Origin: an uncultured Anaerolineaceae bacterium
GTDB taxonomy: Bacteria > Chloroflexota > Anaerolineae > Anaerolineales > Anaerolineaceae
Length of the DNA stretch: 64,000 nt
NCBI GenBank assembly: GCA_964420835.1
Contig: CAYQUO010000001.1
Coordinates: forward strand, 19,643 to 83,642
Direction: 5' to 3'
Numbering within the stretch: the stretch's first letter is position 1; the number at the start of each line of letters is the position of its first letter. Below are positions 19,989 to 62,961 of the stretch, in pieces. The position numbers and the translations under genes are program-made. Below the pieces are notes generated by a model. The model saw only the letters and a list, made by a program, of their open reading frames with translations. It was not told the origin of the DNA and did not search any database.

Positions 19989-20357
19989 ATGGAAGATCGC
20001 ATTACCATCATCGAGGGGCCGCCGCCCGTTTTTGAGAGCATCAATGACGGCTGGGCCCTGGGCTTGAATGAAAGCCCATACATGTACGACATGGCCCTCA
20101 CCCATGTACGGACCTTTAACGGGCCCGCCCTGGTGGAGCGCTGCTACCGCGCCTGGAGCCGCCAAGACCCCATTTATCTCCATTACCGCAACGAAATCGG
20201 CCTGGAGGAGAAGGCACCCATCCTGGCTGCCCGCTCGGTGGAGACCGCCGAAGGCCAGATGCTCATGTTGTGGATCCGCCTGGAACCGCAGTTGGAAGAT
20301 GAGGATATGGAGATCGACCTGGACGAAGGCGACGAGGACCTGACCACGGGAAAATGA
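19989..20357 (+). CDS. hypothetical protein with acidic C-terminal tail
   Basis: The 122-aa protein ends in EPQLEDEDMEIDLDEGDEDL. Its stop overlaps the next start (ATGA). I recognise no family. Confidence 0.45.
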   Translation: MEDRITIIEGPPPVFESINDGWALGLNESPYMYDMALTHVRTFNGPALVERCYRAWSRQDPIYLHYRNEIGLEEKAPILAARSVETAEGQMLMLWIRLEPQLEDEDMEIDLDEGDEDLTTGK

Positions 20358-22906: not shown

Positions 22907-22910
22907 TGCG

Positions 22911-24164: not shown

Positions 24165-24176
24165 GGGGGGGTTGCC

Positions 24177-33368: not shown

Positions 33369-33413
33369 GCCTGTGATACAATCATCGCGTGACCTTCTCC
33401 GGGGGCTCCCAGC

Positions 33414-34595: not shown

Positions 34596-35206
34596 GCGTG
34601 ATCGAGATTGGCCGCCTGCTGCGCTCCGGCACTGCCGGCTGCGTAATCGGCTGCCAGGCTGACCGCCTGGAAACGCCTGCCTTTGGCGCCATGGTGCGCA
34701 TCCCCATCGGTGGCCCGCAGCCGCTGGATATTTACGGGATCATCCATGACATCCACATCGATGACGACGGGCTGGTTCGCCAATTGGTGACCGCCGGCGA
34801 TGTGCCCGAGGAACTGATCCTGGACAACCGCCTGAACCGCAACGTGCCGGTGGAGATGAGCGTGTTGTTCATCGGCCATGCCGCGGGTGGCGGCCTCCGG
34901 CACCTGCTGCCGCCGCGCCCGCCGCTGACCCTGGAGTCCATCTACCTGTGCTCACCGGCCGAGATCTGTGCCTTCACCGCAGCCGGGCGCTTTGGCTATT
35001 TCCGGCATATCCTGCGCGCCGTGGACCTGCCCACTGCCGAACTGCTGGCCGCCCACCTGCTGCAGGCCGCCCGGGCCCAGGGCTCCGCCGGCAACCCCGC
35101 CTGGGTGGCCGATGCCGAGCGCGAACTGATCACCCTGCTGCGGGATGACTACCCGACCCTGATGTCCGTGTTGGGCGCCCTGGCCGATGCCGACCTGCCC
35201 GCCTGA
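34592..35206 (+). CDS. hypothetical protein, N-terminal HAS-barrel-like region (nurA/herA-associated)
   Basis: The 204-aa ORF starts in an ATGA overlap with the nurA stop. Its N-terminal pattern (IEIGRLLRSG..VIG....L..PAFGAMVRIPI.....DIYGIIHDIHI) is collinear with the N-terminus of the downstream HerA (IGYIVGGS....ARLTL....EGSFVVIES..WRFYGLATDLQL). The functional call is inference. Confidence 0.45.
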   Translation: MSVIEIGRLLRSGTAGCVIGCQADRLETPAFGAMVRIPIGGPQPLDIYGIIHDIHIDDDGLVRQLVTAGDVPEELILDNRLNRNVPVEMSVLFIGHAAGGGLRHLLPPRPPLTLESIYLCSPAEICAFTAAGRFGYFRHILRAVDLPTAELLAAHLLQAARAQGSAGNPAWVADAERELITLLRDDYPTLMSVLGALADADLPA

Positions 35207-35227
35207 CCCCCCCAGAGGAGCAGCCCA

Positions 35228-36955
35228 ATGAACGACTTCCACGCAAATGAAAATCAAACCCCCGTGGCCGGATCCATCGGCTACATCGTTGGCGGCAGCC
35301 TGAAGGAGAACCTGCGCGCCCGCCTGACCCTGCCGCCCGAACAGGTGCAGGAGGGCAGTTTTGTGGTCATCGAGAGTGACCTGTGGAGGTTCTATGGCCT
35401 GGCGACAGACCTGCAACTGGGCGCCACCGACCCGCGCTTCGCCGACGAGCAGAGCGAGGTGCGCCTGCCGGCCAGCCTGGCCGCCCACCTGCATGGGCAA
35501 ACGCTGTTCACCACGCTGGAGATCCTGCCGGCGTTGATGCTGGAATGCGGGCCGGACCCGGCTTCTCCGGAATACGCCGCCTGGCGCCTGGAACACCCGG
35601 AGGACGACCGCCCGCGCCCAATCAAGACCATCCCGCGGCACCATGCCGCCGTACGCCTGGCCACGGAAGGCGACGTGGCCGAGATCTTCGGGCAGCCGGG
35701 GAAGGGCGGCAACTTTGCCATCGGCACCACCCGCGAGCAGGGCCACCCGGTATGCCTGGACCTGGACAGGCTGATCCTGCGCTCGGCGGGCATCTTCGGC
35801 GCCACCGGCACCGGAAAATCCTTCCTGGCGCGCCTCCTGCTGGCCGGGCTGATCCGGCACAACAAAGCCTCGGTGCTGGTCTTTGACATGCACAACGAGT
35901 ACGGCTTCGATGACCGGGCTTCGGATACCGGGCAGCAGGTGCCCGGCCTGCGAACAAAATTCCCCGCCATGGTGCGGGTGGTGGCACTGGGGCGCGGTTC
36001 CATGGTGCGCGAGGACCAGCCGGACTTCCAATTGGAGATCGCCGGCAGCGACATCCAGCCGGAGGATATTGAAATGCTCACCCGTGAACTGAACCTGAAG
36101 GAGACCACCCCGGCCACCCTGGATGCCCTGGTGACCAAATTCGGGCGGGCCGACTGGTACCGGCAATTTAAAGCCATGAAGGTGGGATCGGTGTTAAAGG
36201 ATGAAGAAAGCGGCAAGACCACCCCGGCGCCGGACAGCGTGGCCGCCTGGGCCAACGAAGCCGGGGTGAACGTGATGGCCGCCGAAGGCCTGCACAACAA
36301 ACTGGGGCGTGTGTTCCGCCTGCCGTACATCACAGACCGCCCGGCAGCCGATACACTGCAGGAGATCATCCGGCTGTTGGAGGCGGGCAACCACATCGTC
36401 CTCTCCTTTGCCAACCACGAGACGGACCTGGACTACCTGCTGGTGACCAACCTGATCACCCGGCGAATCCGCGAGGCCTGGGAGAAGAAGACCAACGAGG
36501 CGCGCAGCCGGGAGGGCGGCGAACCGCGCCAACTGGTGGTTGTGCTGGAGGAAGCCCACAAACTGCTCAACCGGGAGATGTCGCGCCAGACGGCCTTCAG
36601 CATCATCGCCCGGGAGATGCGCAAATACTTCGTCACCCTGCTGGTGATCGACCAGCGCCCCTCGCAGATCGACGACGAGGTGATGTCACAATTGGGCACA
36701 CGCATTTCGGGCTGGCTGGGGGATGACCTGGACATCCAGGCCGTGCTCTCGGGGTTGGCCGGCCGCGAGGCGCTGCGGGGCATGCTCTCGCGCCTGCAGC
36801 CCAAGGAGGAGGTGCTCCTGCTCGGCTGGGGCATGCCCATGCCGCTGCCGGTGCGCTCGCGGCGCTACGACGACCGCTTCTGGCAGGAACTGACCGGAAA
36901 GCCGGCCGCCCGGCGCAGCGCGCAGGAATTCATCGATACGATCGCCCCGCAGTGA
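35228..36955 (+). CDS. herA: HerA/DUF87 family hexameric ATPase-translocase
   Basis: It has Walker A GATGTGKS (35798-35821), Walker B VVVLEEAHKLL and an N-terminal barrel-like region. The text VTLLVIDQRPSQID is typical of HerA/FtsK-class ATPases. GAGGAG lies upstream of the ATG. Confidence 0.8.
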   Translation: MNDFHANENQTPVAGSIGYIVGGSLKENLRARLTLPPEQVQEGSFVVIESDLWRFYGLATDLQLGATDPRFADEQSEVRLPASLAAHLHGQTLFTTLEILPALMLECGPDPASPEYAAWRLEHPEDDRPRPIKTIPRHHAAVRLATEGDVAEIFGQPGKGGNFAIGTTREQGHPVCLDLDRLILRSAGIFGATGTGKSFLARLLLAGLIRHNKASVLVFDMHNEYGFDDRASDTGQQVPGLRTKFPAMVRVVALGRGSMVREDQPDFQLEIAGSDIQPEDIEMLTRELNLKETTPATLDALVTKFGRADWYRQFKAMKVGSVLKDEESGKTTPAPDSVAAWANEAGVNVMAAEGLHNKLGRVFRLPYITDRPAADTLQEIIRLLEAGNHIVLSFANHETDLDYLLVTNLITRRIREAWEKKTNEARSREGGEPRQLVVVLEEAHKLLNREMSRQTAFSIIAREMRKYFVTLLVIDQRPSQIDDEVMSQLGTRISGWLGDDLDIQAVLSGLAGREALRGMLSRLQPKEEVLLLGWGMPMPLPVRSRRYDDRFWQELTGKPAARRSAQEFIDTIAPQ

Positions 36956-48060: not shown

Positions 48061-50505
48061 TTACCGCGGGGCGGGAAGGTTCCCCGGGTCGAAACGGCGC
48101 AGGCGCAGGCTGTTGCTGACGACGAAGACGCTGCTGAAGGCCATGGCGGCGGCGGCCAGCATGGGGTTCATCAGGCCGGCGGCGGCTGCCGGGATGAGGA
48201 TGATGTTATAGAAGAAGGCCCAGAACAGGTTCTGTTTGATTGTCCGTAACGTGCGCCGGGAAAGCGCCACCGCCCTTGGCACGCCCAGCAGGTCGCCGCT
48301 GATAAGCACGACCGGGGCTGAGGCCATGGCCACATCGGTGCCGCTGCCAATGGCCATGCCCACATCGGCCTGGGCCAGGGCCGGCGCATCGTTGATGCCA
48401 TCGCCCACCATGGCCACCACGGCCTTCTCCTGCTGCAGTTTTTTCACGGCATCCGCCTTGTCTCCAGGCAGCACCTCGGCCAGGACGGTTTGGATGCCCG
48501 CCTGGCGGGCGATTGCCTCGGCCGTGCGGCGGTTGTCGCCGGTGATCATGGCCACCTGCAGGCCCTGCCCCCGCAGCGCCCTGACGGCTTCCACCGAACC
48601 GGGTTTCAACGTGTCGGCAATGCCGATGGCGCCGGCGGGTTTGCCGTCCACCAGCACCACGGCAACCGTGCGGGCCTCGTCCTGCAGCCGGTCAACAGCC
48701 TGCTGCAGGCCATCCAGGGGTATGCCCAAACCGGCGGCCATGCGCGGGCTGCCAACGGCCACGTCCCGGCCATCCACCTGGGCGCCAACGCCCTGCCCGG
48801 CCTGGGCCTGAAAACCCTGCGGCTCGGAGAGCGCCAGTTCCCGGTTGCCGGCCTCGGCCAGGATGGCCTCGCCCAGCGGGTGCTCGCTGCCCTTCTCCAC
48901 CGAGGCGGCCAGGCGCAGCAGTTCATTTTCACCGCCGGCGAGGCCCGCAACGATCACATCGGTCACCGCCGGCTGGCCGCGGGTGAGTGTTCCGGTCTTG
49001 TCAAAGACGACCGTGGTCAAACGGCCGGCCTGCTCCAGGGCCCCGCCGCTCTTGAAAAGGATGCCCATGCCGGCGCCGCGGCCGGTGCCGACCATGACGG
49101 CGGTGGGTGTGGCCAGGCCCATGGCGCAGGGGCAGGCGATGACCAGCACGGCAACGGTGTGGATCAGCGCCCGGGTGAAGGCGCTTGTTTCGGTGGCTGC
49201 CGGCGCTGGAACGAGGAAGTACCAGGCGGCGAAGGTGAGGGCGGCAATGAGGATGACCGCCGGGACAAAAACGGCCGAAATGCGGTCGGCCAGCGCCTGG
49301 ATGGGCGCCTTGCTTCCCTGGGCCTCCTCCACCAGGCGGATGATCTGCGCCAGGGCGGTCTCCCGGCCGACCTTGGTGGCCTCAAAACGCAGCAGGCCCA
49401 ATTTGTTCAATGTGGCACCGATGAGCGGATCGCCGGGGCCTTTTTCCACCGGCAGCGATTCGCCGGTGAGCATGGATTCGTCCACGGCGCTGCGGCCCTC
49501 GATGACCACCCCGTCCACGGGCACTTTTTCTCCCGGGCGCACCAGCACCAGGTCGCCCACGGCCACCTCTTCCACGGGCACCTCCATTTCGGCGCCATCG
49601 CGCAGCACGTGCGCCGTGCGCGGCCGCAACTCCATTAATTTTTTAATGGCCTCGCTGGTGCGCCCCTTGGCGCGGGCCTCCAGGAACTTGCCCACTTTGA
49701 TGAGGGTGATGATGACCGCCGAGGTCTCAAAATAAACGTGCCCGCCAAGCAGCCCGAGGGTGACCGGGATCGAATAGAAATACGCCACCGATGAACCCAT
49801 GGCCACCAGCACGTCCATGTTGGCCGAACCGGCCCTCAGCGAGCGGTAGGCGCCCACGTAATACTGCCAGCCCACGTAGAACTGCACGGGGGTGGCCAGG
49901 GCCAGCAGCACCCAGTTGAAGGCCGGCGAATGGGCGATGGACATGGGCAGCAGGCCAAAATCGCGGCTCATGGAGAGCAGGAAAAGGGGGATGGTGAAGA
50001 CCAGCCCGGTGATGAGCAGGTGCCGCTGGCGGGCGGTCTCCTCCCGGCGCACACGGGCTTCCACGTCCTCGGCCTCGCCTCCGGTCTCAATGGTCTCAAA
50101 GCCGGCAGCGGCGGCCGCCTGGCGCAGTTCTGCCTGGGTGACCAGGGTGGGGATGTAGCGCACCCGGGCGCGCTCGGCGGTCAGGCTCACCTGGGCGGAG
50201 AGCACGCCCTCAATGGCCTGCAGGGCCTTTTCCAGGCGGCGGGCGTCATTGTCATCGGCCAGGCGGCGGATGAGCAGGTCGGCCTCGCCGGAGGCCACGC
50301 CGTAGCCGGCGCGTTCCACCCGGCTGACCAGTTCCGCCACATCCGCTTTTTGCGGGTCAATGGTGACGGTGGCGCGCTCGGAGGAGAGGTTCACCGCCGC
50401 CTCCTGCACGCCATCGGCGCGCTTGAGGTTGCGCTCCACCGTGGCAACGCAGTTGGCGCAGGTCATGCCCGTGATGGGGAGGATGACTTGTTTCGGGCTG
50501 CTCAT
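48061..50505 (-). CDS. copA: copper-translocating P1B-type ATPase
   Basis: It has HMA GMTCANC followed by a second, Cys-less HMA-like repeat. It also has the TM CPC motif, DKTGTLT and [11 protein letters not shown] prefer the ATG at 50505. Confidence 0.95.
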
Positions 50506-50527
50506 AAGGTTGCCTTCCACGGCCGGG

Positions 50528-50734
50528 TCAGCCGGCCGGGGGGTAGTTGATCTCCTTCAGCAGGGAGACGATCTGTTCCTCGCTGGCGGGATCCTCGTAG
50601 GTGACCTGCGCCTGGTGCTGCTCCACGCTGGCCTTGACCTCTTTTACGCCGGGCAGTTGCATCAGTTCGCTGGTGATGGTGTGCACACAGTGGTGGCAGG
50701 AAATTGAGGGAATGCTGTAGGTGACTGTTTTCAT
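50528..50734 (-). CDS. copZ: copper chaperone CopZ-like HMA protein
   Basis: It reads [20 protein letters not shown] (CxxC). AAGGAG lies upstream of the ATG at 50734. Confidence 0.82.
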
Positions 50735-50767
50735 GGGGTTCTCCTTTGCCTGTATGTGGAACTGCAC

Positions 50768-51040
50768 TCAAACCTTTGTGGCGGTTTCGAACACTTCGGT
50801 GATCTCGCGCAGCACGCGGCTGCGCTCTTCGGGGTCTTCACCCTGCACGGCGGTTACCAGGCAGGAATTGAGGTGCTGGTCGAGGATGAGGGTGCTGAGC
50901 TTGTTGAGGGCGGCCTGTACGGCCTGTACCTGGTGGATGATGTTGATGCAGTAGACGTCCTCTTCGACCATGCGCTGGATGCCGCGCAGGTGTCCCTCGG
51001 CGGACTTAAGGCGCCGGATCACTTCTTCGTGGTTGTGCAT
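50768..51040 (-). CDS. csoR: CsoR-family copper-sensing repressor
   Basis: It contains RLKSAEGHLRGIQRMVEED.YCI.IIHQVQAVQAAL....L..HL.SC, which is the C-H-C metal ligand pattern. Confidence 0.88.
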   Translation of the reverse strand: MHNHEEVIRRLKSAEGHLRGIQRMVEEDVYCINIIHQVQAVQAALNKLSTLILDQHLNSCLVTAVQGEDPEERSRVLREITEVFETATKV

Positions 51041-51051
51041 GTTCTCCTTCC

Positions 51052-51076
51052 TACCCCTCCCCCTTGGGGGGGGTTA
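51052..51076 (-). promoter_or_regulatory. candidate CsoR operator (C/G-tract pseudo-palindrome)
   Basis: TACCCCTCCCCC-TT-GGGGGGGGTTA lies between the -10 element and the csoR RBS. Confidence 0.6.
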
Positions 51077-52590: not shown

Positions 52591-54201
52591 TCAGCCCAGG
52601 GGTTTGACCATGTACAGGCTTCCCCCGTTGTAGCCGCGCGCCTGGTAGTACCGGCGGGTGCCGATGGCCGAGATGACCGCCAGGCGCAGGAAGCCTGCCT
52701 GGAGGGCAAGCCTTTCGGCCTCCGCCAGCAGGCGTGTCCCCAGCCCGCTGTGCTGGGCTGCCCCCTCCTGTTCGGATCCCACTGCCAGGCTCTGCCCGTA
52801 AACATGCACCTCGCGCACCAGGGCCGCCCCGGCCAGGTCTTCCAGGCCGGTGTCCGGCGCGTCCGGTGCGGGCAGCGAAAGTCGCAGGTAACCGGCCAGG
52901 CGGTCGGTGGGTGTGACGTAGGAGAGGAAATGCTCCACGGCGAAGGCCGGGCGGTATACAAGGTCCTGCAGGTGCAGTTCCCCGGCCTGCACCGGCTGGC
53001 TGCGCACCTCGCGGCAGCGGATGCAGCGGCAGCGCAACCCCCTTCGGGCCAGTTCGGCGGATATGTCCTGCCGCAGGCTGGTGCGGCGGTTGCCGGCCAC
53101 CACGTGGTGCGAGGGGATGTCGCGGATGACCCGGTTCAACCGGCAGTACTCGGGGATGGAAGGTTTGAGGTCCGCCACCAGGTTCACCAGCGTTTCCATG
53201 TCGTAGGGCTGGTACTCTCCGGACTGCCAGCGCCTGTAAAGCGCCGTGCCGGCCAGCAACTGGGTGGGGTAGATCTTCAACTCATCCGGGCAGATGCCCA
53301 GGCCCCGGCCGGCCTCCAGCCACAGGCGGGCAAAGTCCTGCCGGTCCGAATCCGGGGTGGCACCCAGCAGGTTGGGCATCCAGTGGGCCACGATCTTGAA
53401 GCCGGCCGCCCGCAGCAGGGCGAAGGCCCGCTGAACTGCGGCCGTGTCGTGGCCGCGGCAGTTGCGGGCCAGGATGGCATCGTCCAGGCTTTGCACCCCC
53501 AGTTGCACCTTGGTGACACCCAGGCGGCGCATGTAGCGGATGGATGCCGGGGTGACCTCGTCCGGGCGGGTCTCCACCACCATGCCCACGTTGCGCCGGC
53601 TGGCGGTTTCGTTCAACTGTTGGGCTTCCTCCAGCGAGGAGGATTCGCTGCCGTTGAGGGCGTCCAGGCAGCGCTGCACAAAACGCTGGCGGTATTCCGG
53701 CGGGTAGGCATCCCAGGTGCCTCCCAGGATGAGCAGTTCGACCTTGTCCACCGGGTGGCCGACGGCGGTGTAGGAATCCAGGCGCGAGCGCACCTGCGCA
53801 AAGGCGTCGAACCGGTTCTGGAAGGCGCGCGCCGCCCCGGGCTCGTCGGCCAGGTAACTCTTGGGCATGCCCGGCTCCTGCGGGCAGAAGATGCAATGGC
53901 CAGGGCAGGGCTGCGGCCCGGTGAGCACCGTGACCGTGGTGACGCCGGAGAGCGAGCGCACGGGCTTCCTGCGGATGCGTGCCAGCAGGGAATCATCTTC
54001 GGGCCATTCCCCGGCGGCCACGCCCTGGCGGTACACCGTCACCAGCGTGTGCTTGGGGACGTACCCTCCGCTGGAAAGCGGGTGGCGGCGGATGGCCTTC
54101 ATCACCTCGCGGCCGGCGCGCACCTCGTCCAGGACTGTGCGGGCCACAGCCAGCATTTCCGGCGTGTTCTCCAGCGAAGCCAGCCAGGTCTCTGCATCCA
54201 T
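52591..54201 (-). CDS. elp3: bacterial Elp3 homologue (radical SAM + GNAT, tRNA U34 cm5-type modification enzyme)
   Basis: It has the radical-SAM cluster CPGHCIFC, the Elp3-specific middle region and a C-terminal GNAT domain (RLAVISAIGTRRYYQARGY). Length is 536 aa. Confidence 0.85.
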   Translation of the reverse strand: MDAETWLASLENTPEMLAVARTVLDEVRAGREVMKAIRRHPLSSGGYVPKHTLVTVYRQGVAAGEWPEDDSLLARIRRKPVRSLSGVTTVTVLTGPQPCPGHCIFCPQEPGMPKSYLADEPGAARAFQNRFDAFAQVRSRLDSYTAVGHPVDKVELLILGGTWDAYPPEYRQRFVQRCLDALNGSESSSLEEAQQLNETASRRNVGMVVETRPDEVTPASIRYMRRLGVTKVQLGVQSLDDAILARNCRGHDTAAVQRAFALLRAAGFKIVAHWMPNLLGATPDSDRQDFARLWLEAGRGLGICPDELKIYPTQLLAGTALYRRWQSGEYQPYDMETLVNLVADLKPSIPEYCRLNRVIRDIPSHHVVAGNRRTSLRQDISAELARRGLRCRCIRCREVRSQPVQAGELHLQDLVYRPAFAVEHFLSYVTPTDRLAGYLRLSLPAPDAPDTGLEDLAGAALVREVHVYGQSLAVGSEQEGAAQHSGLGTRLLAEAERLALQAGFLRLAVISAIGTRRYYQARGYNGGSLYMVKPLG

Positions 54202-54207
54202 GGCAGC

Positions 54208-55227
54208 CTATGCGGGTGAAAGCGAGGCGCGCACGATGAAGCGGTCCACCGCCCCGAAGCGGTACTTGTAGTCCTCGTCGCCGCGCATGAAATCCAGTTC
54301 GGAGTACTGGTTGGTGATGGCCCACTGGATGAGGTTGGCCAGCAGCACCCAGCCGGGGGACTGCTCGCGAAAGGCCGGGTCGAGGCCGGAATTGTAGACC
54401 CACAGGCGGTTAAGGTACTGGAAGCTGAGGTAGCCGGCCGCCTTTTTCCCGCCCACCTCCAAAAAAGCCAGGTTCAGGCAATCCACTTCAAAGGCGCAGC
54501 GGGCCACCTGGCGCATGAACTCCCGCATGGGCGGGGTGAGGAAGGCTGCCTTCTCCTGGTCGTGGGCCATCAGGTGCATAAAGTCATCCATGGCGGCGTC
54601 CAGGGTGGCCGGGTCGTTGTGGATGTGCCAGTTGACCGGCTCGGGCGATTCCTCCGCCCGGCGCAGTTTGCGGCGGATCTCGTGGCGCTGTTTCTTGTCG
54701 ATTCCGGCCAGGTAGGTCTCCCAGTCGCCGGGCAGGGTAATGAAGGGGGAGTGCTGCAGGCGGGCGTTGTGATACTTCCAGCCGAGGTCTGCAGCGGCTT
54801 GCTGCAGCGCTGGCAGGGTGGGGGAGGTTTCGACCAGGTTGTAGAACTCCAGGCTCTGCCAGGCCGGCAACCCGGCGCGGGGCAGGTACCCCAGCAGGCC
54901 GCGGCAGAAGGCCGGCAGGTCCTCCGGGGGGCAGAGCAGGTCCAGGTAGTCGGAAACCTCGAAACTTCCCACCAGCAGCAGGGACGGTTTGCCATCGTGC
55001 TGCGGGGCGTGGAAGAGCGGTGCGGCGGCGGCCAGCCGGCCCTGCCTGCGGGCCAGCACAAGCGCCAGGCGGGTCCCCGCCGGCCATTCTCCCCCGCCGC
55101 GGCTGCGCCACCAGGTTTCCAGGTACTCATGGCGCATGAAGGGGGCATGACAAGGGCTGCCGCCCAGCAGGGCATTCCACTCCTCCAGGGGGACCGCAGA
55201 AAATGAATCGCTGATCGAAAACTCCAT
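54208..55227 (-). CDS. GNAT-fold acyltransferase, CelD/BioF2-like (Acetyltransf_6-like)
   Basis: The C-terminus reads LDFMRGDEDYKYRFGA, which is typical of this family. It lies 6 nt upstream of elp3. Confidence 0.68.
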   Translation of the reverse strand: MEFSISDSFSAVPLEEWNALLGGSPCHAPFMRHEYLETWWRSRGGGEWPAGTRLALVLARRQGRLAAAAPLFHAPQHDGKPSLLLVGSFEVSDYLDLLCPPEDLPAFCRGLLGYLPRAGLPAWQSLEFYNLVETSPTLPALQQAAADLGWKYHNARLQHSPFITLPGDWETYLAGIDKKQRHEIRRKLRRAEESPEPVNWHIHNDPATLDAAMDDFMHLMAHDQEKAAFLTPPMREFMRQVARCAFEVDCLNLAFLEVGGKKAAGYLSFQYLNRLWVYNSGLDPAFREQSPGWVLLANLIQWAITNQYSELDFMRGDEDYKYRFGAVDRFIVRASLSPA

Positions 55228-55293
55228 GGCTGCTCCAGTTTGGTGTTGACTGTGTGCCGCCCGGCTTGGATGCCGGTCGGCCTGGGCATTGCC

Positions 55294-56739
55294 CTATGCC
55301 GGTTCCAACGCCCGGACGGCCCGCCCCAGGATCTCGCCCAGGGCGGTTTCCACCTCCCGATCCAGGGGGGCGGGCTGGTGGGTTTGCAGCAGGTGGGCGG
55401 CCTCGCGGCGGGCGCGGGCCGGCATCTCCTCCGCCCCGGCCTCCAGCCAGGACTGGCGGGGCTGGCGCACCAGCAGGTGCGAGCGCAGGCGCGGCTCACG
55501 GCGCATGAACTGCAGGGTATGTTCATCCATCAGCAGGTTCCCCTGCTCCAGGCTGCGGGCGATCGCACCCGGCGCCAGGGTATCCTTGTTGACCGCAAAA
55601 CCCCCGGCTGCCCGGCGGGCGATGGCGGTGAGTTCGTTGTCCATCACCAGTTGCGGGTAACTGATGTACAGGCCGCCGTCCATGTGCCCGGCGCCGGTGA
55701 GGATGGTCGCGCCCGCCAGGGCGGGCAGAAAGACAAAATAGGCGTTCTCCATGCCGGCCTGCAAGTCCGAGGCCGGGGAATCGGTGTAGGGGCCGTGCAT
55801 GTTCACGGGCAGGTTGTAGGCCTCCCGGGCCAGTTGCACACCGGCAGCCGCCACGAGGGCGTTCTCCACCGAGCCGGTCAGGGCGCGGCCGCTGGACATC
55901 TCCATGACCATGATGCGCGGGGCGAAGATCACCGGAGACCCCGGGTTGGCCAGTTGGGAGATGACGATGGACGCCACCATTTCGATGTTGGAGACCAGCA
56001 ACGCCCCGGCCAGGGTCACCGGACCGGTGGCACCGGAGATGGGCATGCTGCAGATCTCCACCGGAATGCCGGCCTCCCCGCAGGCCAGCAGAACGTCCAC
56101 CAGCACATCCGGCAGTTTGAGCGGGGAGATGGGCGATTCGAGCATGGTCAGCGGCGGGCAGCGCCGCAGGGCCTTGCGGCTTCCGGCCAGCACAACGGCC
56201 ATTTCCAGGACGTAGGGCAGGCTGCCCGGGTTGAGCAGGCGCATGTTGATGTGCTTGCTGCAGTTGGAGGCCATGGCCAGCAGGGCGTGCAGGTCGCGGG
56301 TGGCCGCCGGGCGGTCCTGCGGGTAAAGCGGGGCAACGATGTCCAGGTTCGGCAGGGCATCCACCAGGCGGGCGTAATCGGAGGTATCCTGCAGTGTGGC
56401 GTCGCGCACCTGCCCGCTCTCCATGTCCAGCACATGTCCTGGGCCGCCGCCGTTGCGGGCGTACAGCCCTTTGCCGGGTGCGATCTCCAGGTCCTGCGCC
56501 GGGAGGCGCCCGCCCAGGGTGAACTCGCCCGGCGCCAGGGCCAGGCAGTGCTCCACCAGGTCCGCCGGCAGGCGGACCAGCCGGCGGGCAAAATCCACCC
56601 GCGCCCCGGCTTCAGCCAGCAGGCTCAACCCGCCGGCATGCATCACCGTGATGCCCGTGGTTTGCAGGTGTTCGAGCGTCTGCTGCTGGATGGCGGTGAT
56701 GTCTTTTTTGGACAATATCTTCAATGCAGGGCAGGTCAT
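55294..56739 (-). CDS. MttB-superfamily methyltransferase, non-pyrrolysine type
   Basis: The 481-aa uninterrupted ORF has no in-frame TAG. The MttB-like text includes ILSKKDITAIQQQTLEHLQTTGITV and GAGHMDGGL. Confidence 0.8.
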   Translation of the reverse strand: MTCPALKILSKKDITAIQQQTLEHLQTTGITVMHAGGLSLLAEAGARVDFARRLVRLPADLVEHCLALAPGEFTLGGRLPAQDLEIAPGKGLYARNGGGPGHVLDMESGQVRDATLQDTSDYARLVDALPNLDIVAPLYPQDRPAATRDLHALLAMASNCSKHINMRLLNPGSLPYVLEMAVVLAGSRKALRRCPPLTMLESPISPLKLPDVLVDVLLACGEAGIPVEICSMPISGATGPVTLAGALLVSNIEMVASIVISQLANPGSPVIFAPRIMVMEMSSGRALTGSVENALVAAAGVQLAREAYNLPVNMHGPYTDSPASDLQAGMENAYFVFLPALAGATILTGAGHMDGGLYISYPQLVMDNELTAIARRAAGGFAVNKDTLAPGAIARSLEQGNLLMDEHTLQFMRREPRLRSHLLVRQPRQSWLEAGAEEMPARARREAAHLLQTHQPAPLDREVETALGEILGRAVRALEPA

Positions 56740-56835
56740 GATTGTGGCATCCTTTCAGAAATATCCTGCCGTCACACCCCAACTGCCATGGCGGTGTACG
56801 GGCCATCCTTTTCAGTCCCAATTATAAATGAAGAA

Positions 56836-59277: not shown

Positions 59278-60501
59278 ATGGAACCGGAAAGAATGGGAGT
59301 CACAACCGCCACAACAGGCCAGGCCAGGTCCGCCACCGTGCTGCACCGCTCGGTCCTGTTGGCATCCATGGCCTTCACCTTCCTCGGCTTTATGCTGCCC
59401 ATTTACAGCCGGGGCATTGGGGCCAGCGCGGTGGAGATCGGCGGGCTGTACTCCATCTTTACGATCACCGTGCTGATCGGCCGGCCGGTGGTGGGCTGGG
59501 CCATCGACCGTTTTGGCCGGCGGCGCTTCTTCATCACGGCCCTGGCCTTTTACAGTCTGACCATGGTGTTGTTTGCCTTTGCCGGCAGCCTTGGCGGCCT
59601 GTACCTGGCGCGCATGGCCCAGGGGGTGGCCTCCTCGCTGATGTGGATCACCGTGCGCACGATTGTGGCCGACCTGGCTTCCAGCAGCGAACGGGGCAGC
59701 GGCATGGGCAAGGTAAACGAGGCCAGTTACCGCGGCGGGCTGATCGGCGTGTTCCTCGGTTTTGCCATCTTCACCGGCCTGTCGAAAGTGTTCGACCAGG
59801 AGACGGCCTGGATCGCCACCTTTGCCGTTTATGCCCTCCTGGCGGCGGCCGGAGCCTGGTACGCCTGGTCCTGCCTTCCGGAGACGCTGCCCGGCAGGGT
59901 CAGCCGGCCGGTCAACCGGGCGCCCGTCCAGCGCAAACTGCTCCTGCTGCTGGTGGTGGTCTTCACCACCAACCTGGGGCTGGCGCTCATTACGCCCATC
60001 TTCCTCATCTACCTGCAGGACCGCTTCACCACCAACATCACCTCGCTGGCCTGGGCCTTCTTCCCGGCGGGCATCCTGTACAGTTTTTTGCCCTCGCGCC
60101 TGGGAAAACTGAGCGACCGCTATGGCCGGGCGCCGATGATGGCGCTGGGCGTTGTGTTCTCGGCCATCCTCTCGATCTGCATCCCCAGCCTGCCGGGCAT
60201 GGTTTGGCTGGCCGTGCTGTACGCGCTGGAGGCGGTGGGCTGGTCGCTGGCCGACCCGGCCGAAACGGCCATGGTGGCCGACCTGGTGGGGCACGAAGCC
60301 CGCGGGCGGGGTTTTGGCTTTTACGAACTGGCCGCCAGCGTGGGGGCCAGCGCCGGGCCGCTGATCGGCGGCTGGCTGTACGATTCCATCGGCCACAGCG
60401 CCCCCTTCTATTTCAACGGCGGCATGCTCCTCTTCGGGGCTGCCTGGGTTCTGCTCTTCCTGCGTCAAAGGTCTCCCCGGCCGGCGGATGGCGGGGGTTA
60501 G
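59278..60501 (+). CDS. MFS transporter
   Basis: It has about 12 TM segments and motif A (GRPVVGWAIDRFGRRR). The start is set at ATG 59278. The listed start at 58840 gives a non-membrane, Arg/Pro-rich extension. Confidence 0.85.
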   Translation: MEPERMGVTTATTGQARSATVLHRSVLLASMAFTFLGFMLPIYSRGIGASAVEIGGLYSIFTITVLIGRPVVGWAIDRFGRRRFFITALAFYSLTMVLFAFAGSLGGLYLARMAQGVASSLMWITVRTIVADLASSSERGSGMGKVNEASYRGGLIGVFLGFAIFTGLSKVFDQETAWIATFAVYALLAAAGAWYAWSCLPETLPGRVSRPVNRAPVQRKLLLLLVVVFTTNLGLALITPIFLIYLQDRFTTNITSLAWAFFPAGILYSFLPSRLGKLSDRYGRAPMMALGVVFSAILSICIPSLPGMVWLAVLYALEAVGWSLADPAETAMVADLVGHEARGRGFGFYELAASVGASAGPLIGGWLYDSIGHSAPFYFNGGMLLFGAAWVLLFLRQRSPRPADGGG

Positions 60502-60565
60502 GCCAAGCAACTGGTGGCCAGTGGTGATGTCTGACAGCGCTGCCTGGGCGCATGAATGGGGGTGG

Positions 60566-60593
60566 TTGCCATTTAAGCATATTTGGATATAAT
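60566..60593 (+). promoter_or_regulatory. promoter (TTGCCA-N16-TATAAT) of the peroxiredoxin gene
   Basis: ttgcca is at 60566-71 and tataat at 60588-93. The RBS AGGAGG at 60619-24 lies 6 nt before the ATG at 60631. Confidence 0.65.
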
Positions 60594-60630
60594 TGGTAAA
60601 ATTATTAAGACCCAATTCAGGAGGAACCCC

Positions 60631-61380
60631 ATGGCAAAACTGAACACCGGTGACAAGGCGCCCGATTTCATCCTCCCCAGCCACCTGGACAAGCCCGTTC
60701 ACCTGGCCGACCTGAAAGGCAGGACGGTGGTCCTGGTCTTCTTCCCCATGGCCTGGACCCCTATATGAACGAGCCAGATCCCGTCCTACCAGGCCGCCCT
60801 GGCCCGGCTGGCGGGATTAAATGTCCAGGTCCTGGGCATCTCCGTGGATCACGTACCCTGTCTCAAAGCCTGGGCAGAGAGCCTGGGCGGCATCTCCTAC
60901 CCGCTGCTGAGCGACTTCTGGCCGCACGGCGAGACCGCCGGCAAGTACGGTGTGCTGCGGCCGGACGGGATCACCGAGCGCGCCATCTTCATCATTGATG
61001 GAGAGGGCATCATCCGCTATATCGACATTCACGACATCGATGACCAGCCCAGCAACGAAGTGCTCTTTGAAGAGATGCGGAAGATCATCCCTGAGAACTT
61101 CAAGCACGAGCCGCCGGCGCCGAAGAAGGCGCCCCTGCCCCGCGGGGGTGTGGTGATGTACTGCAACTCCTGGTGCCCGGACTGCCGGCGGGCGCGCACG
61201 TGGCTCAAGGAACATAACATCCCCTTCACCGAGGTGGACATTGACCGCACCCCCGGCGCCGGCGAGCAGGTGCGCAAGTGGGCCGGCGGCAACCAGGTTA
61301 CGCCCACCTTTGACATCGATGGCACCATCATCGTTGATTTTGACCAGGCACGCCTGGAAAAAACCCTGCTGCAGAAATGA
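60631..61380 (+). CDS. peroxiredoxin-glutaredoxin-like fusion with in-frame TGA (putative selenocysteine) at the peroxidatic position
   Basis: ORFs 60583-60768 and 60844-61380 are in the same frame, and no stop other than the TGA at 60766-68 lies between them. The translation reads VVLVFFPMAWTPI-U-TSQIPSYQ...LGISVDHVPCLKAW, so the universal Prx motif PxxxTxxC has TGA in place of Cys. The C-terminal domain is VVMYCNSWCPDCRRARTWLKEHNIPFTEVDID, a Grx/NrdH-like CPDC fold. Confidence 0.78.
60777..60818 (+). promoter_or_regulatory. candidate bacterial SECIS hairpin
   Basis: By hand folding, GAUCCCG (60777-83) pairs with CGGGAUU (60812-18). There is a 5-nt internal loop, then CCAG/CUGG and CCG/CGG with a bulged G. 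The 8-nt apical loop is CCCUGGCC. The hairpin starts 8 nt after the UGA, and the loop G residues lie about 35 nt from the UGA. Confidence 0.5.
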
Positions 61381-61387
61381 ACCAGCC

Positions 61388-61420
61388 GCGGGCGGGCAAA
61401 CCCCGCCCGCGTTTTTTTTA
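61388..61420 (+). terminator. rho-independent terminator
   Basis: GCGGGCGGG-caaac-CCCGCCCGC (9 bp) is followed by G and T8. Confidence 0.92.
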
Positions 61421-61545
61421 TCCACCGGCGTTTGTGAGAAATGGGGCATCCCCATGGGAAGTTGCCGGGTGGATGCCTTTGACAGCCCGCCCCGGCTGGG
61501 GTATCATAGCGGCGCAATGCCATCCCAACCCGCCTGCAGGGCCCA

Positions 61546-62961
61546 ATGAACGACCCATTCACAGAAAATGACCCCCAACCCGGCGGGAACGCCGCCAGTG
61601 AGGCTGCGGTTTCCACCGGCAATGAGGCCGACGACACGGCGGAAGATGCCATTCCGGGCGAAGTGGACGCCAGCGAAGAGAGCCGGCCGAAAAGACCCAA
61701 GCCCCTGTTCATCGCCCTGGGGGTTGTGGGCGGCCTGCTGCTACTGGGTATTATGGGCTGGCTGTACTCCCCCTGGCTGAACGACCTGGTTTCCGTCATC
61801 CGCACCTTCACCCCCACACCCCTGCCCCCCACCTTCACCCCGCAGCCCACACGCACGCCAACCTTGACCGCCACGGTGACCATCACCCCCACCATCACCC
61901 CCACACCCCTGCCAGCCTCAGCCTTTGCGGCCGACCCGGCAGGCATCGACCCGCCCATCCCCGGCGTCGCCTGGCCGGTTTACATCCTGGACGAATCCCA
62001 CGCGGTCACCCCCGATCCGCCTTTCGATTCCCCGGTCTGGTCCTCCTCGGCACAGATTGCCGCCGACCTGATGACCGAGATCAGCGAGGGGTATTACGTC
62101 ACCTACGGCGAGGGTTCGGCCACCTGGATGCTGGACATCCAGCCGCCCCCGGGCCTGTATGAGATCCTGGTGATGGACACCTACAATGGCTCGGCCGGTC
62201 CGCTGCAATTCGAGGTGAACCTGGACGGCCAGCCTCAAACACCGCTGAACGGGAGCACATCCATCACCATGCGCTCGCCCAGATTAAGCACACCGCCCCA
62301 GGTGAGCGACCAGTGGAGGAGCCTGGGCTATTTCGACCTGGACCATGCCGGCAGCCTTTCGGTACATACAGCCTGGGAGGCCCGCGACGAGTGGTCGCCC
62401 GTGGCGATTGACCGGGTGGCGGTGGTGCCCCTGCCGGAATCCGCCCGCAGCATGCTGGCCGCCCTGCCAGACGACCGGTTGTACTACCTGGTGGATGATG
62501 CCGCCGCCAGCGTGACGGGACTGGATTCCACGCTGCAGGTCAACGACCGCCTGGCCTGGTTCGACCGCTTCCTGCTGGTGACCAATCCCACCAGCGAAGT
62601 GCAGGTGACCTGGGCGCTTCCGGAGACCGTGCCCCAGGGCACCTGGGAGGTGGTGGTCTGGATACCGGAGAACCTGGGCAACGCCCCATTGAGTTACATG
62701 TTCCTGGTCAACGGCGAAGCCCTTGGCCGGGGGGCGGATGACCAGTTGGAACTGCTCGTCCCCGACGGGCAAGGCAACCGCCCCGGCGGGCAGTGGCTTT
62801 CGCTGGGCGCCTGGGAGATCCCGCTGACCTACGCGCCCACCGTGCGCCTGGGGCTGAAGATGCGCCTGCCTGCGGAGGCGGTTGGCGAGGCGGCTGCCGA
62901 TGCTGTGGCCTTCCTCCTCGTGCCGGGAACCGGGTTCAGCGGCATCACCCCCGAGCCTTGA
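61546..62961 (+). CDS. single-pass membrane-anchored protein with Thr/Pro linker and two related beta-rich extracellular modules
   Basis: It has an acidic cytoplasmic N-terminus, a TM segment (LFIALGVVGGLLLLGIMGWL) and the linker TPTPLPPTFTPQPTRTPTLTATVTITPTITPTPLP. Two modules follow, each containing G.Y/W E..V......G...L.F.V...G...........W.SLG. Confidence 0.5.
   Translation: MNDPFTENDPQPGGNAASEAAVSTGNEADDTAEDAIPGEVDASEESRPKRPKPLFIALGVVGGLLLLGIMGWLYSPWLNDLVSVIRTFTPTPLPPTFTPQPTRTPTLTATVTITPTITPTPLPASAFAADPAGIDPPIPGVAWPVYILDESHAVTPDPPFDSPVWSSSAQIAADLMTEISEGYYVTYGEGSATWMLDIQPPPGLYEILVMDTYNGSAGPLQFEVNLDGQPQTPLNGSTSITMRSPRLSTPPQVSDQWRSLGYFDLDHAGSLSVHTAWEARDEWSPVAIDRVAVVPLPESARSMLAALPDDRLYYLVDDAAASVTGLDSTLQVNDRLAWFDRFLLVTNPTSEVQVTWALPETVPQGTWEVVVWIPENLGNAPLSYMFLVNGEALGRGADDQLELLVPDGQGNRPGGQWLSLGAWEIPLTYAPTVRLGLKMRLPAEAVGEAAADAVAFLLVPGTGFSGITPEP

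What the first reader, a model, noticed from the sequence alone, without database searches (positions are those of the whole stretch)
60566..61420. Peroxiredoxin-glutaredoxin fusion with TGA at the peroxidatic cysteine position: a likely selenoprotein
What the sequence shows: the two listed ORFs (60583-60768 and 60844-61380) are in the same frame, and the only stop between them is the TGA at 60766-60768. Reading through gives ...LVFFPMAWTPI-[TGA]-TSQIPSYQAALARLAGLNVQVLGISVDHVPCLKAW.... The universal Prx active-site motif PxxxTxxC therefore appears as P-MAW-T-PI-TGA, with the stop codon exactly where the catalytic Cys belongs. The gene has a good promoter (TTGCCA-N16-TATAAT), a strong RBS (AGGAGG), an intact C-terminal Grx/NrdH-like domain with CPDC, and a perfect terminator. 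None of this is expected for a decaying pseudogene. A 42-nt hairpin (60777-60818) starts 8 nt after the UGA. It has 14 bp and an apical loop CCCUGGCC, which is the region where bacterial SECIS elements lie. Established knowledge: Sec-containing peroxiredoxins exist (PrxU of Eubacterium acidaminophilum, and Prx-like selenoproteins in bacterial selenoproteome surveys). Prx-Grx hybrids with Cys are also known. Inference: this is a Sec-Prx fused to a Grx-like reductant domain, a combination I do not recognise as characterised. It would also mean the organism has the Sec machinery.
Basis: partly seen in the sequence, partly recalled or inferred. Interest (0 to 1): 0.75.

Follow-up and report, generated by a model that had tools for sequence, protein, structure and literature searches.

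The report
Selenocysteine peroxiredoxin–glutaredoxin fusion gene
This is a real gene for a peroxide-destroying enzyme whose catalytic residue is selenocysteine, encoded by a recoded TGA "stop" and followed by the RNA hairpins that direct the recoding; dozens of environmental Chloroflexi share it, but public annotation splits or mistranslates it.

Summary
One reading frame runs from ATG 60631 to the stop at 61378-61380, interrupted only by TGA 60766-60768. That TGA sits exactly at the peroxidatic position (P39-x3-T43-x2-U46).

Read through, the 249-aa product is an AhpC/TSA peroxiredoxin domain plus a glutaredoxin domain with C182-P-D-C185.

Among 97 orthologous fusion genes fetched as DNA, 85 carry TGA at this codon and 11 carry TGC or TGT. 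Both flanks evolve as coding sequence, and the 86 TGA-form genes compared, the window's included, have no other in-frame stop in the 36 upstream and 60 downstream codons checked.

Two adjacent hairpins follow the TGA (60777-60818 and 60821-60839). They are 92% base-paired with 90 compensatory cells in 76 TGA forms, but at shuffle level (58%) in 10 Cys forms. The first has its apical loop 25-29 nt after UGA.

TGA ends 32 of 48 supported ORFs in the window, so the genetic code is not reassigned.

The Prx domain is AhpE-type (M. tuberculosis AhpE, TM-score 0.9). The Grx domain resembles mycoredoxin-1, AhpE's known reductant.

Selenocysteine peroxiredoxins (TxxU) are a known family. The fused AhpE-type architecture and the second hairpin are new variants.

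No selA, selB, selC or selD lies in the window, so the machinery is untested for this genome.

The parts
60566..60593 (+). sigma-70-like promoter, TTGCCA-16 nt-TATAAT
   Evidence: 11 of 12 matches; 2 sites found against 0.4 expected in shuffles. This is a consensus match only.
60619..60624 (+). ribosome-binding site AGGAGG, 6 nt before the ATG
   Evidence: Read directly from the sequence.
60631..61380 (+). Selenoprotein CDS: 249 codons plus TGA stop. AhpE-type peroxiredoxin fused to a glutaredoxin-like domain.
60649..61023 (+). Peroxiredoxin (AhpC/TSA) domain, residues 7-131. Active-site residues P39, T43, U46 and R117.
   Evidence: Pfam PF00578, E 4.5e-38. P39, T43, P44 and R117 are invariant in alignment A1. 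The best solved structures are M. tuberculosis AhpE.
60766..60768 (+). In-frame TGA, read as selenocysteine 46, the peroxidatic residue
   Evidence: The codon is TGA in 85 and TGC/TGT in 11 of 97 orthologous fusion genes. It is identical in two independent assemblies.
60777..60818 (+). SECIS-like hairpin 1: lower stem GAUCCCG/CGGGAUU, upper stem GGCC/GGCC, apical loop GCCCU starting 27 nt after UGA
   Evidence: Helices 1 and 2 are 93% and 84% paired in 76 TGA forms and 51-52% paired in Cys forms. Mean MFE is -18.9 against -6.0 kcal/mol.
60821..60839 (+). Hairpin 2, AUGUCCAG-GUC-CUGGGCAU, 2 nt after hairpin 1; specific to Sec forms; role unknown
   Evidence: It is 96% paired in TGA forms, with 17 GC-to-AU swaps at columns 64:78. 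It is 67.5% paired with no compensatory change in Cys forms.
61150..61329 (+). Glutaredoxin-like domain, residues 174-233
   Evidence: Pfam PF00462, E 1.3e-12. The best solved relatives are glutaredoxin 7c10 and mycoredoxin-1 2lqo.
61174..61185 (+). C182-P-D-C185 redox motif of the Grx domain
   Evidence: W181 and C182 are invariant and C185 is nearly invariant in A1.
61387..61419 (+). Intrinsic terminator: 10 G-C pairs, 5-nt loop, T run

Best explanation
The locus is one gene (60631-61380) for a 249-residue selenoprotein.

Recoding (inferred from anatomy). During translation, UGA 60766-60768 is read as selenocysteine. A SECIS-type stem-loop starting 8 nt downstream (60777-60818, apical loop 27 nt after the UGA) would recruit SelB·GTP·Sec-tRNASec to the ribosome. 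A second hairpin 2 nt further on (60821-60839) co-evolves with the UGA and probably assists, by stacking on or stabilising the first or by pausing the ribosome.

The protein (shown by sequence and fold comparison). It is an AhpE-type peroxiredoxin. Sec46 sits in the P39-x3-T43-x2-U46 pocket with R117. A linker of about 40 residues joins it to a mycoredoxin/YruB-like glutaredoxin domain carrying C182-P-D-C185.

Catalytic cycle (inferred).
1. The selenolate of Sec46 attacks the peroxide and becomes a selenenic acid.
2. Cys182 of the fused Grx domain, in the same chain or across a dimer, resolves it to a selenenyl-sulfide.
3. Cys185 releases reduced Sec46 and forms a Cys182-Cys185 disulfide.
4. 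That disulfide is reduced by a cellular thiol system that was not identified here.

Shown: the frame, the domains, the Sec/Cys alternation, the Sec-specific RNA structure and the subfamily assignment. Inferred: SelB dependence, the role of hairpin 2 and the electron path.
For: - Single frame with TGA at the peroxidatic position, and the two domains.
- 85 of 97 orthologous fusion genes have TGA at this codon and 11 have TGY. 25 of the top 120 database proteins show 'W' there on short contigs; the one checked at DNA level is TGA.
- Pairwise divergence at codon positions 1/2/3 is 0.25/0.20/0.61 upstream and 0.20/0.15/0.50 downstream of the TGA. There are no other in-frame stops in the 36 upstream and 60 downstream codons of 86 genes.
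- Structure in 76 distinct TGA forms: 92.2% of cells paired, against 21-43% when the partners are slid. There are 90 compensatory cells, and 0 of 500 shuffles reach that.
- The same structure on 10 Cys forms is 57.6% paired against a shuffle mean of 58.1%.
- Mean MFE of hairpin 1 is -18.9±3.1 against -6.0±2.8 kcal/mol; of hairpin 2, -10.3 against -3.5. The apical loop lies 25-29 nt after UGA in 75 of 76.
- The 3' arm of hairpin 1 imposes the peptide F-A-G-L in 49 of 76 Sec forms and 0 of 10 Cys forms.
- TGA terminates 32 of 48 supported ORFs in the window, including this gene itself.
- The TGA is identical in two independent assemblies.
- The Prx domain matches M. tuberculosis AhpE: phmmer E 4.5e-24; Foldseek TM 0.89-0.92, rmsd 1.3-1.5 Å, on a model of the Cys orthologue P0010 with pLDDT 88.5.
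- The Grx domain matches mycoredoxin-1 2lqo, E 3.2e-8. AhpE is reduced by Mrx1 in M. tuberculosis (PMC6178380).
- Anaerolineales genomes encode SelB (PMC4959059).
- TxxU peroxiredoxins are an established selenoprotein family.
Against: - No selA, selB, selD or tRNA-Sec gene lies in the 64-kb window or in the flanks of the related loci. The decoding machinery of this genome is therefore unverified.
- On the single sequence the hairpin is not more stable than shuffles (z = -1.22).
- Only 48 of 76 minimum-energy apical loops have a G in their first two positions, so the fit to the published bacterial SECIS consensus is incomplete.
- No Rfam model matches.
- Hairpin 2 lies further from the UGA than any described SECIS and has no known role.
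- The cultured Ornatilinea apprima copy (L008) has the TGA but a weak hairpin 1 and a broken hairpin 2.
- The Cys control set is small (10 sequences).
- The intramolecular Sec-to-Grx electron path is inference only.
Confidence: 0.86

Rival explanations
1. Decaying pseudogene: a Cys-peroxiredoxin gene that picked up a TGC/TGT-to-TGA nonsense mutation and is no longer functional.
For: Gene callers treat it as broken, giving a 45-aa and a 178-aa ORF. A single-base change from TGC or TGT gives TGA.
Against: - The same codon is TGA in 85 of 97 orthologues from many lineages.
- Both flanks are under purifying selection, with no other in-frame stop in the flanks checked in 86 genes.
- An RNA structure co-varies with the TGA.
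- The promoter, RBS and terminator are intact.
Confidence: 0.02
2. Two separate products, as annotated: translation stops at the UGA to give a 45-aa peptide, and an independent 178-aa protein starts at GTG 60844. That protein would be the C-terminal half of the Prx fold plus the Grx domain.
For: Public gene calls are exactly this (P0001 of 178 aa; a 45-aa gene in L161 and L162). Other truncated calls of 193-197 aa exist.
Against: - The 25 codons between the TGA and GTG 60844 are conserved in frame and carry invariant residues Q49, I50, P51 and Y53.
- The internal start positions differ between orthologues.
- The Prx fold and its active site (P, T, U, R117) would be split across two chains.
- I saw no AGGAGG-type RBS immediately upstream of 60844 when reading the sequence.
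Confidence: 0.03
3. UGA is read through with a standard amino acid (Trp, Cys or Gly), without selenium. This would happen either by near-cognate suppression stimulated by the downstream hairpins or because the organism reassigns UGA.
For: Downstream structures can stimulate read-through in general (own knowledge). The Sec machinery was not found in the window. Some gene callers chose a TGA=Trp code for short contigs.
Against: - TGA ends 32 of 48 supported ORFs here, including this gene, so there is no reassignment.
- Trp or Gly at a peroxidatic position would kill catalysis.
- The alternation is strictly with Cys, the signature of Sec.
- The hairpin's position matches bacterial SECIS spacing.
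- The clade is reported to encode SelB.
Confidence: 0.06
4. Assembly or sequencing error: the true codon is TGC or TGT.
For: The window probably comes from a metagenome assembly; raw reads were not inspected.
Against: Two assemblies from different runs are identical over 1.4-1.9 kb, TGA included. 85 orthologues have the same TGA.
Confidence: 0.01

Closest known systems
Selenocysteine-containing peroxiredoxins (Prx, TxxU motif; prototype PrxU of Eubacterium acidaminophilum)
   Same: AhpC/TSA fold, with Sec replacing the peroxidatic Cys in PxxxTxxU. The UGA is followed directly by a stem-loop. The family alternates with Cys forms. It is listed as an established and abundant bacterial selenoprotein family (PMC1794560, PMC2398784, PMC13188914).
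   Different: This gene is not PrxU: NCBIfam NF040737 scores 60 bits against a cut-off of 270. The Prx domain belongs to the AhpE subfamily. It is fused to a Grx-like domain. A second Sec-specific hairpin follows the first.
Mycobacterium tuberculosis AhpE (Rv2238c), a 1-Cys peroxiredoxin, with its reductant mycoredoxin-1 (Rv3198.1)
   Same: AhpE is the closest solved structure for the Prx domain (E 4.5e-24; TM 0.89-0.92; 36% identity). The Grx domain's second-best solved relative is Mrx1. AhpE is recycled by Mrx1 (PMC6178380), so the fusion joins in one chain a pair that works as two proteins in mycobacteria.
   Different: AhpE uses Cys45, is a separate protein and depends on mycothiol. Here the residue is Sec, the two partners are fused, the Grx motif is CPDC rather than CGYC, and the host is a Chloroflexi-type organism whose low-molecular-weight thiol was not established here. 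The mycoredoxin model TIGR02200 is not reached (48 bits against 89.5).
Hybrid Prx5-glutaredoxin of Haemophilus influenzae (PDB 1nm3)
   Same: Same domain order, with the peroxiredoxin N-terminal and the glutaredoxin C-terminal, and the same logic of a built-in reductant. Foldseek aligns both domains.
   Different: The Prx subfamily is different (Prx5-type). Identity is 22-23%, and rmsd is 9.5-11.4 Å over the two-domain alignment. It is a Cys enzyme and depends on glutathione.
Bacterial SECIS elements (the fdhF type of E. coli; the bSECISearch consensus)
   Same: A stem-loop starts a few nucleotides after the UGA within the coding region. Its apical loop lies 25-29 nt downstream, inside the 16-37 nt range I recall for the consensus model (own knowledge, not checked here). 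The structure is conserved through compensatory changes and absent from Cys homologues.
   Different: There is no sequence match to any Rfam family. The loop G is present in only 48 of 76 minimum-energy loops. A second, equally conserved hairpin follows 2 nt later; I do not know of this as a described feature.

Membership tests
Bacterial selenoprotein gene (Sec decoded at UGA) | In-frame UGA aligned with Cys in homologues at a redox-active site | tested here: met
   TGA in 85 and TGC/TGT in 11 of 97 orthologous genes at the PxxxTxx[U/C] position. 85 Cys forms are among the top 120 protein hits.
Bacterial selenoprotein gene (Sec decoded at UGA) | SECIS stem-loop immediately 3' of the UGA, conserved in Sec forms only | tested here: met
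   92.2% paired with 90 compensatory cells in 76 TGA forms, against 57.6% (shuffle level) in 10 Cys forms. The loop lies 25-29 nt after UGA in 75 of 76.
Bacterial selenoprotein gene (Sec decoded at UGA) | Genome encodes SelA, SelB, SelD and tRNA-Sec | not testable with these tools
The literature reports SelB in Anaerolineales SAGs and A. thermophila UNI-1 (PMC4959059).
Bacterial selenoprotein gene (Sec decoded at UGA) | Selenium actually incorporated into the full-length protein | not testable with these tools
   Needs 75Se labelling or mass spectrometry.
Peroxiredoxin (AhpC/TSA, PF00578) | Pfam domain above threshold, with the active-site residues P, T, Cp and R | tested here: met
   130.4 bits against a cut-off of 26. 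P39, T43 and R117 are invariant, and U/C is at position 46.
AhpE subfamily of peroxiredoxins | Closest sequence and structure relatives are AhpE; no obligatory resolving Cys within the Prx domain | tested here: met
   The top seven PDB sequence hits and the top nine Foldseek hits are M. tuberculosis AhpE chains. The only other Cys in the Prx domain (C76) is not in the invariant or nearly invariant lists and is S, T or G in some members. No formal subfamily classifier was run.
PrxU (NCBIfam NF040737, thioredoxin-dependent Sec peroxiredoxin) | Score at or above the curated cut-off of the equivalog model | tested here: not met
   60.2 bits against 270.
Hybrid Prx5-Grx (H. influenzae type) | Prx5-type N-terminal domain with a superimposable two-domain arrangement | tested here: not met
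   1nm3 aligns at 22-23% identity with rmsd 9.5-11.4 Å; the best Prx matches are AhpE, not Prx5.
Glutaredoxin (PF00462) | Pfam domain above threshold and a CxxC motif | tested here: met
   48.2 bits against a cut-off of 22.9. C182-P-D-C185 is conserved.
Mycoredoxin (TIGR02200) / YruB-family Grx-like (TIGR02196) | Score at or above the curated cut-off | tested here: not met
   48.1 against 89.5 and 58.8 against 88.55 bits. These are resemblances only.

The most novel reading that the evidence does not exclude
The two adjacent hairpins together form a distinct, bipartite class of bacterial SECIS. The second hairpin has its loop about 61 nt after the UGA, is conserved by GC-to-AU swaps, and is also present in stand-alone Sec AhpE-type peroxiredoxins of Bacillota. 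On this reading it is required for efficient Sec insertion. The fused protein would be a self-recycling selenoperoxidase in which a selenenyl-sulfide is passed directly to a built-in mycoredoxin-like domain. That would be a natural 'Rosetta stone' for the AhpE-Mrx1 partnership, and Sec would be the ancestral state in Anaerolineae.
Probability: 0.25. Interest if true: 0.55.

Novelty: new variant of a known kind. Interest (0 to 1): 0.45.

Why it matters
- **Annotation.** In the gene calls seen here the gene is cut into 45-aa and 178- to 197-aa pieces, or the TGA is translated as Trp. No NCBIfam model reaches its cut-off. A widespread Chloroflexi selenoprotein is therefore largely invisible to annotation, and selenoproteome counts that rely on such gene calls would miss it.
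- **Biochemistry.** The fusion links an AhpE-type peroxidase to a mycoredoxin-like reductant in one chain. This independently supports the AhpE-Mrx1 pairing known from mycobacteria. It also offers a compact system for comparing Sec with Cys in a 1-Cys peroxiredoxin, because natural Cys variants 76-80% identical to Sec variants exist.
- **RNA.** A set of 76 distinct natural SECIS variants with matched Cys controls, plus an unexplained second hairpin, is useful material for refining bacterial SECIS models.
- **Limits.** None of this overturns current understanding; it extends a known family.

Tried and rejected
- **Rfam.** The whole window at gathering threshold, and 60600-60950 at E ≤ 10, gave no SECIS or other relevant family.
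- **ARAGORN.** The window and 21 related loci contain no tRNA-Sec.
- **Pfam.** 40 GC3-supported ORFs of the window include no SelA, SelB or SelD. The only nearby candidate is a generic class-V aminotransferase at 20303-21607.
- **tblastn.** E. coli SelA, SelB and SelD against the window and all fetched loci gave no hit.
- **RNAalifold.** Run on the 76 TGA forms it predicted only hairpin 2. Hairpin 1 needed an explicit structure, because its upper stem shifts register between lineages.
- **Other candidates.** A scan for other in-frame TGAs with coding-like flanks gave six sites. Apart from the focal one, none has a redox motif. The two I examined (35204 and 50768) are ordinary gene junctions, with a Met start soon after the TGA.
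- **Structure prediction.** The Cys orthologue P0010 was modelled instead.
- **DNA look-up.** The look-up of P0002 returned no DNA.
- **Literature.** Searches for a Sec AhpE-type or Sec Prx-Grx fusion found no description. One query was rejected for syntax.
- **Rejected readings.** Pseudogene, split genes, code reassignment and sequencing error are treated under the rival explanations.
Full report
**1. What is in the sequence**

Reading 60400-61600 and translating 60583-61380 shows a single frame. Its only internal stop is TGA at 60766-60768. The first ATG in that frame is 60631-60633, with AGGAGG at 60619-60624. The frame ends at TGA 61378-61380.

Read through, the product is 249 residues: MAKLNTGDKAPDF...VLVFFPMAWTPI-U-TSQIPSYQ...YCNSWCPDCRRAR...LLQK. 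Pfam places AhpC/TSA on residues 7-131 (E 4.5e-38) and Glutaredoxin on residues 174-233 (E 1.3e-12).

The TGA falls on the peroxidatic position of the universal P-x3-T-x2-C motif (P39, T43, position 46). The conserved active-site arginine is R117.

The consensus scans find TTGCCA-16-TATAAT at 60566-60593. They also find a terminator with 10 G-C pairs and a T run at 61387-61411.

**2. Is the TGA real and selected?**

The protein search returned 7127 relatives. Among the best 120, 85 have Cys at the position. Another 25 have 'W', all on short contigs. Eight, including P0001 of this window, are N-truncated ORFs that lack the N-terminal part with the peroxidatic site; the six whose sequences I read (178-197 aa) begin 16 to 26 residues after it. 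The one 'W' protein checked at DNA level (P0105) has TGA at that codon (L163).

At DNA level, a scan of one genome per species returned Anaerolineae loci L001-L016. All of them have TGA at the codon except L007 (TGT). Pelolinea submarina (L031) has TGC.

A metagenome scan was seeded on purpose with Cys forms only (A2), yet it still returned mostly TGA forms. Over both scans, 85 fusion genes have TGA and 11 have TGC or TGT.

In the 86 TGA-form genes compared (the 85 loci plus the window), mean pairwise divergence at codon positions 1, 2 and 3 is 0.25, 0.20 and 0.61 in the 36 codons upstream of the TGA. It is 0.20, 0.15 and 0.50 in the 60 codons downstream. No other in-frame stop occurs in these flanks. 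Both halves are therefore translated and under purifying selection.

The window's sequence, TGA included, is reproduced without a mismatch in two assemblies of different runs. TGA is the ordinary stop in this genome. It ends 32 of 48 ORFs supported by GC3, including this gene itself, so a reassigned code is excluded.

**3. The RNA structure**

The window's hairpin (60777-60818) folds at -27.7 kcal/mol in its 76-nt context. That is not unusual for this G+C-rich sequence (z = -1.22). The decisive evidence is comparative.

The 93 nt around the codon align without gaps in 76 distinct TGA forms (A3) and in 10 Cys forms (A4). I wrote down one structure:
- Hairpin 1: columns 18-24 with 53-59, 26 with 52, 30 with 48, and 33-36 with 42-45.
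- Hairpin 2: columns 62-69 with 73-80.

| Measure | 76 TGA forms | 10 Cys forms |
|---|---|---|
| Cells forming standard pairs | 92.2% | 57.6% |
| Control | 21-43% with partners slid | shuffle mean 58.1% |
| Cells with compensatory change | 90 (0 of 500 shuffles reach this) | 5 (270 of 500 shuffles reach this) |
| Mean MFE, hairpin 1 (kcal/mol) | -18.9 ± 3.1 | -6.0 ± 2.8 |
| Mean MFE, hairpin 2 (kcal/mol) | -10.3 ± 2.0 | -3.5 ± 1.8 |

In the TGA forms, 10 of the 21 pairs show changes on both sides.

The apical loop of hairpin 1 starts 25-29 nt after the UGA in 75 of 76 TGA forms. This lies within the 16-37 nt range I recall for the published bacterial SECIS consensus (own knowledge, not checked here).

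Examples of covariation:
- Columns 21:56 are C-G 65 times, G-C 4 times and U-A 4 times.
- Columns 24:53 are G-C 58 times, U-A 5 times and C-G 4 times.
- Columns 64:78 are G-C 54 times, A-U 17 times and G-U 3 times.

The RNA constrains the protein. The 3' arm CGGGAU forces the peptide F-A-G-L in 49 of 76 Sec forms and in 0 of 10 Cys forms.

Close relatives make the same point. L084-L087 (TGA) keep both hairpins. L081-L083 (Cys) are 76-80% identical to their nearest Sec form, L086, at protein level and have lost both.

RNAalifold alone recovered only hairpin 2. The upper stem of hairpin 1 changes sequence and register between lineages. One example is GAAGUAU...AUACUUU in L006 against GGCC...GGCC in the window, which is itself covariation.

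**4. What the protein is**

The Prx domain's best solved relatives are all M. tuberculosis AhpE, the 1-Cys peroxiredoxin Rv2238c. The sequence match has E 4.5e-24. An AlphaFold model was made of the Cys orthologue P0010, which is 66% identical to the window protein. It has mean pLDDT 88.5. It superposes on AhpE with TM 0.89-0.92 and rmsd 1.3-1.5 Å.

The Grx domain's best solved relatives are a glutaredoxin (7c10) and mycoredoxin-1 of M. tuberculosis (2lqo, E 3.2e-8).

In mycobacteria AhpE is recycled by mycoredoxin-1 (PMC6178380, citing Hugo et al. 2014). The fusion thus joins a known enzyme-reductant pair in one chain. The H. influenzae hybrid Prx5-Grx (1nm3) has the same domain order but aligns poorly, at 22-23% identity and rmsd 9.5-11.4 Å.

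No NCBIfam model reaches its curated cut-off:

| Model | Score (bits) | Cut-off (bits) |
|---|---|---|
| PrxU | 60 | 270 |
| YruB-type Grx | 58.8 | 88.55 |
| Mycoredoxin | 48.1 | 89.5 |

The gene is therefore not a member of any curated equivalog family. That fits with the way it is mis-annotated.

**5. Mechanism**

Recoding. SelB·GTP·Sec-tRNASec is inferred to bind the upper part of hairpin 1 while the ribosome has the UGA in the A site. Hairpin 2, two nucleotides downstream, may stack on hairpin 1 or slow the ribosome. This part is inferred from anatomy and was not tested.

Catalysis. Sec46 is oxidised by peroxide to a selenenic acid. Cys182 of the CPDC motif resolves it, and Cys185 completes a disulfide. 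A cellular reductant then reduces that disulfide. These steps are inferred by analogy with 1-Cys Prx/Grx systems and AhpE/Mrx1.

**6. Distribution and evolution**

Record titles place the fusion almost entirely in Anaerolineae/Chloroflexota, plus one MAG labelled Acidobacteria.

Stand-alone Sec AhpE-type peroxiredoxins occur in several other lineages:
- Sulfobacillus harzensis (L020) and a Bacillota MAG (L029), both of which show the same two-hairpin layout.
- Another MAG labelled Acidobacteria (L017).
- An Anaerolineales MAG with a membrane anchor (L026).
- A deltaproteobacterial MAG with a signal peptide (L046).

On a neighbour-joining tree of 97 fusion proteins, Cys forms sit in at least six places among Sec forms. 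This suggests repeated Sec/Cys conversion. The sample is biased towards Sec forms and the direction is not settled.

**7. What could not be shown**

The window has no tRNA gene. None of its 40 ORFs scanned with Pfam is SelA, SelB or SelD. tblastn with the E. coli proteins finds nothing in the window or in any fetched locus.

The only support is the literature. Anaerolineales single-cell genomes and A. thermophila UNI-1 encode the Sec-specific elongation factor, and some carry Sec formate dehydrogenases (PMC4959059).

**8. Comparison with the known, and verdict**

Sec peroxiredoxins with TxxU are an experimentally founded family (PrxU) and are abundant:
- 12 selenoproteins in the 2006 genome survey.
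- 253 in the Global Ocean Sampling data.
- Listed in the 2026 review of the prokaryotic selenoproteome.

These come from PMC1794560, PMC2398784 and PMC13188914. Those papers describe Prx fusions to other domains, but in the passages I searched, none to a glutaredoxin. Searches for a Sec AhpE-type enzyme found nothing.

I therefore rate this as a new variant of a known kind. It is a genuine, widespread and systematically mis-annotated selenoprotein. Its architecture is informative, and it carries an unexplained second RNA hairpin. Interest is moderate.

Noticed in passing
window 60821-60839; A3 columns 62-80; also L020 and L029: A second perfect hairpin lies 2 nt after the SECIS-like one. It is conserved by GC-to-AU swaps only in TGA forms, and its loop is about 61 nt after the UGA. 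It is also present in stand-alone Sec peroxiredoxins of Sulfobacillus harzensis and a Bacillota MAG. Its role is unknown.
   Followed up: partly
L008 (Ornatilinea apprima P3M-1, NZ_LGCL01000026.1) 6124-6216: This cultured isolate carries the TGA form but has a weak hairpin 1 (-10.5 kcal/mol) and a broken hairpin 2. It may be a decaying copy or may use a different structure.
   Followed up: no
database proteins P0002-P0112; L161, L162, L163: In the gene calls seen here the gene is either split into 45 aa plus 178-197 aa, or the TGA is translated as Trp on short contigs (25 of the top 120 hits). The latter probably results from a TGA=Trp code being chosen for short contigs.
   Followed up: partly
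window 22884-28081 (+) and 33393-36952 (+): A Mre11-like phosphoesterase and a Rad50/SbcC protein with a zinc hook (with a CNNM/CorC transporter gene between them), plus a separate NurA-HerA pair a few kb downstream: a set of DNA end-resection genes within about 14 kb.
   Followed up: no
window 52594-56754 (-): Three frame-contiguous genes: an MttB-family methyltransferase (no in-frame TAG within the ORF), a GNAT/FemAB-like acetyltransferase, and a radical SAM protein with the Radical_SAM_C domain. Whether they form a functional unit is unknown.
   Followed up: no
window 48064-51073 (-): A CsoR-type metal-sensing repressor sits directly upstream of a P-type ATPase with heavy-metal-associated (HMA) domains. 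This looks like a copper-export operon.
   Followed up: no
window 61479-62961 (+): The downstream gene has its own promoter-like site (TTGACA-17-TATCAT). It encodes a 471-aa protein with a Pro/Thr-rich N-terminal region and no Pfam match.
   Followed up: no
window 27700-29220: Long ORFs on both strands (499 and 498 codons) have similar composition statistics (GC3 0.76 and 0.77), so GC3 cannot tell which strand is coding. They were not annotated.
   Followed up: no
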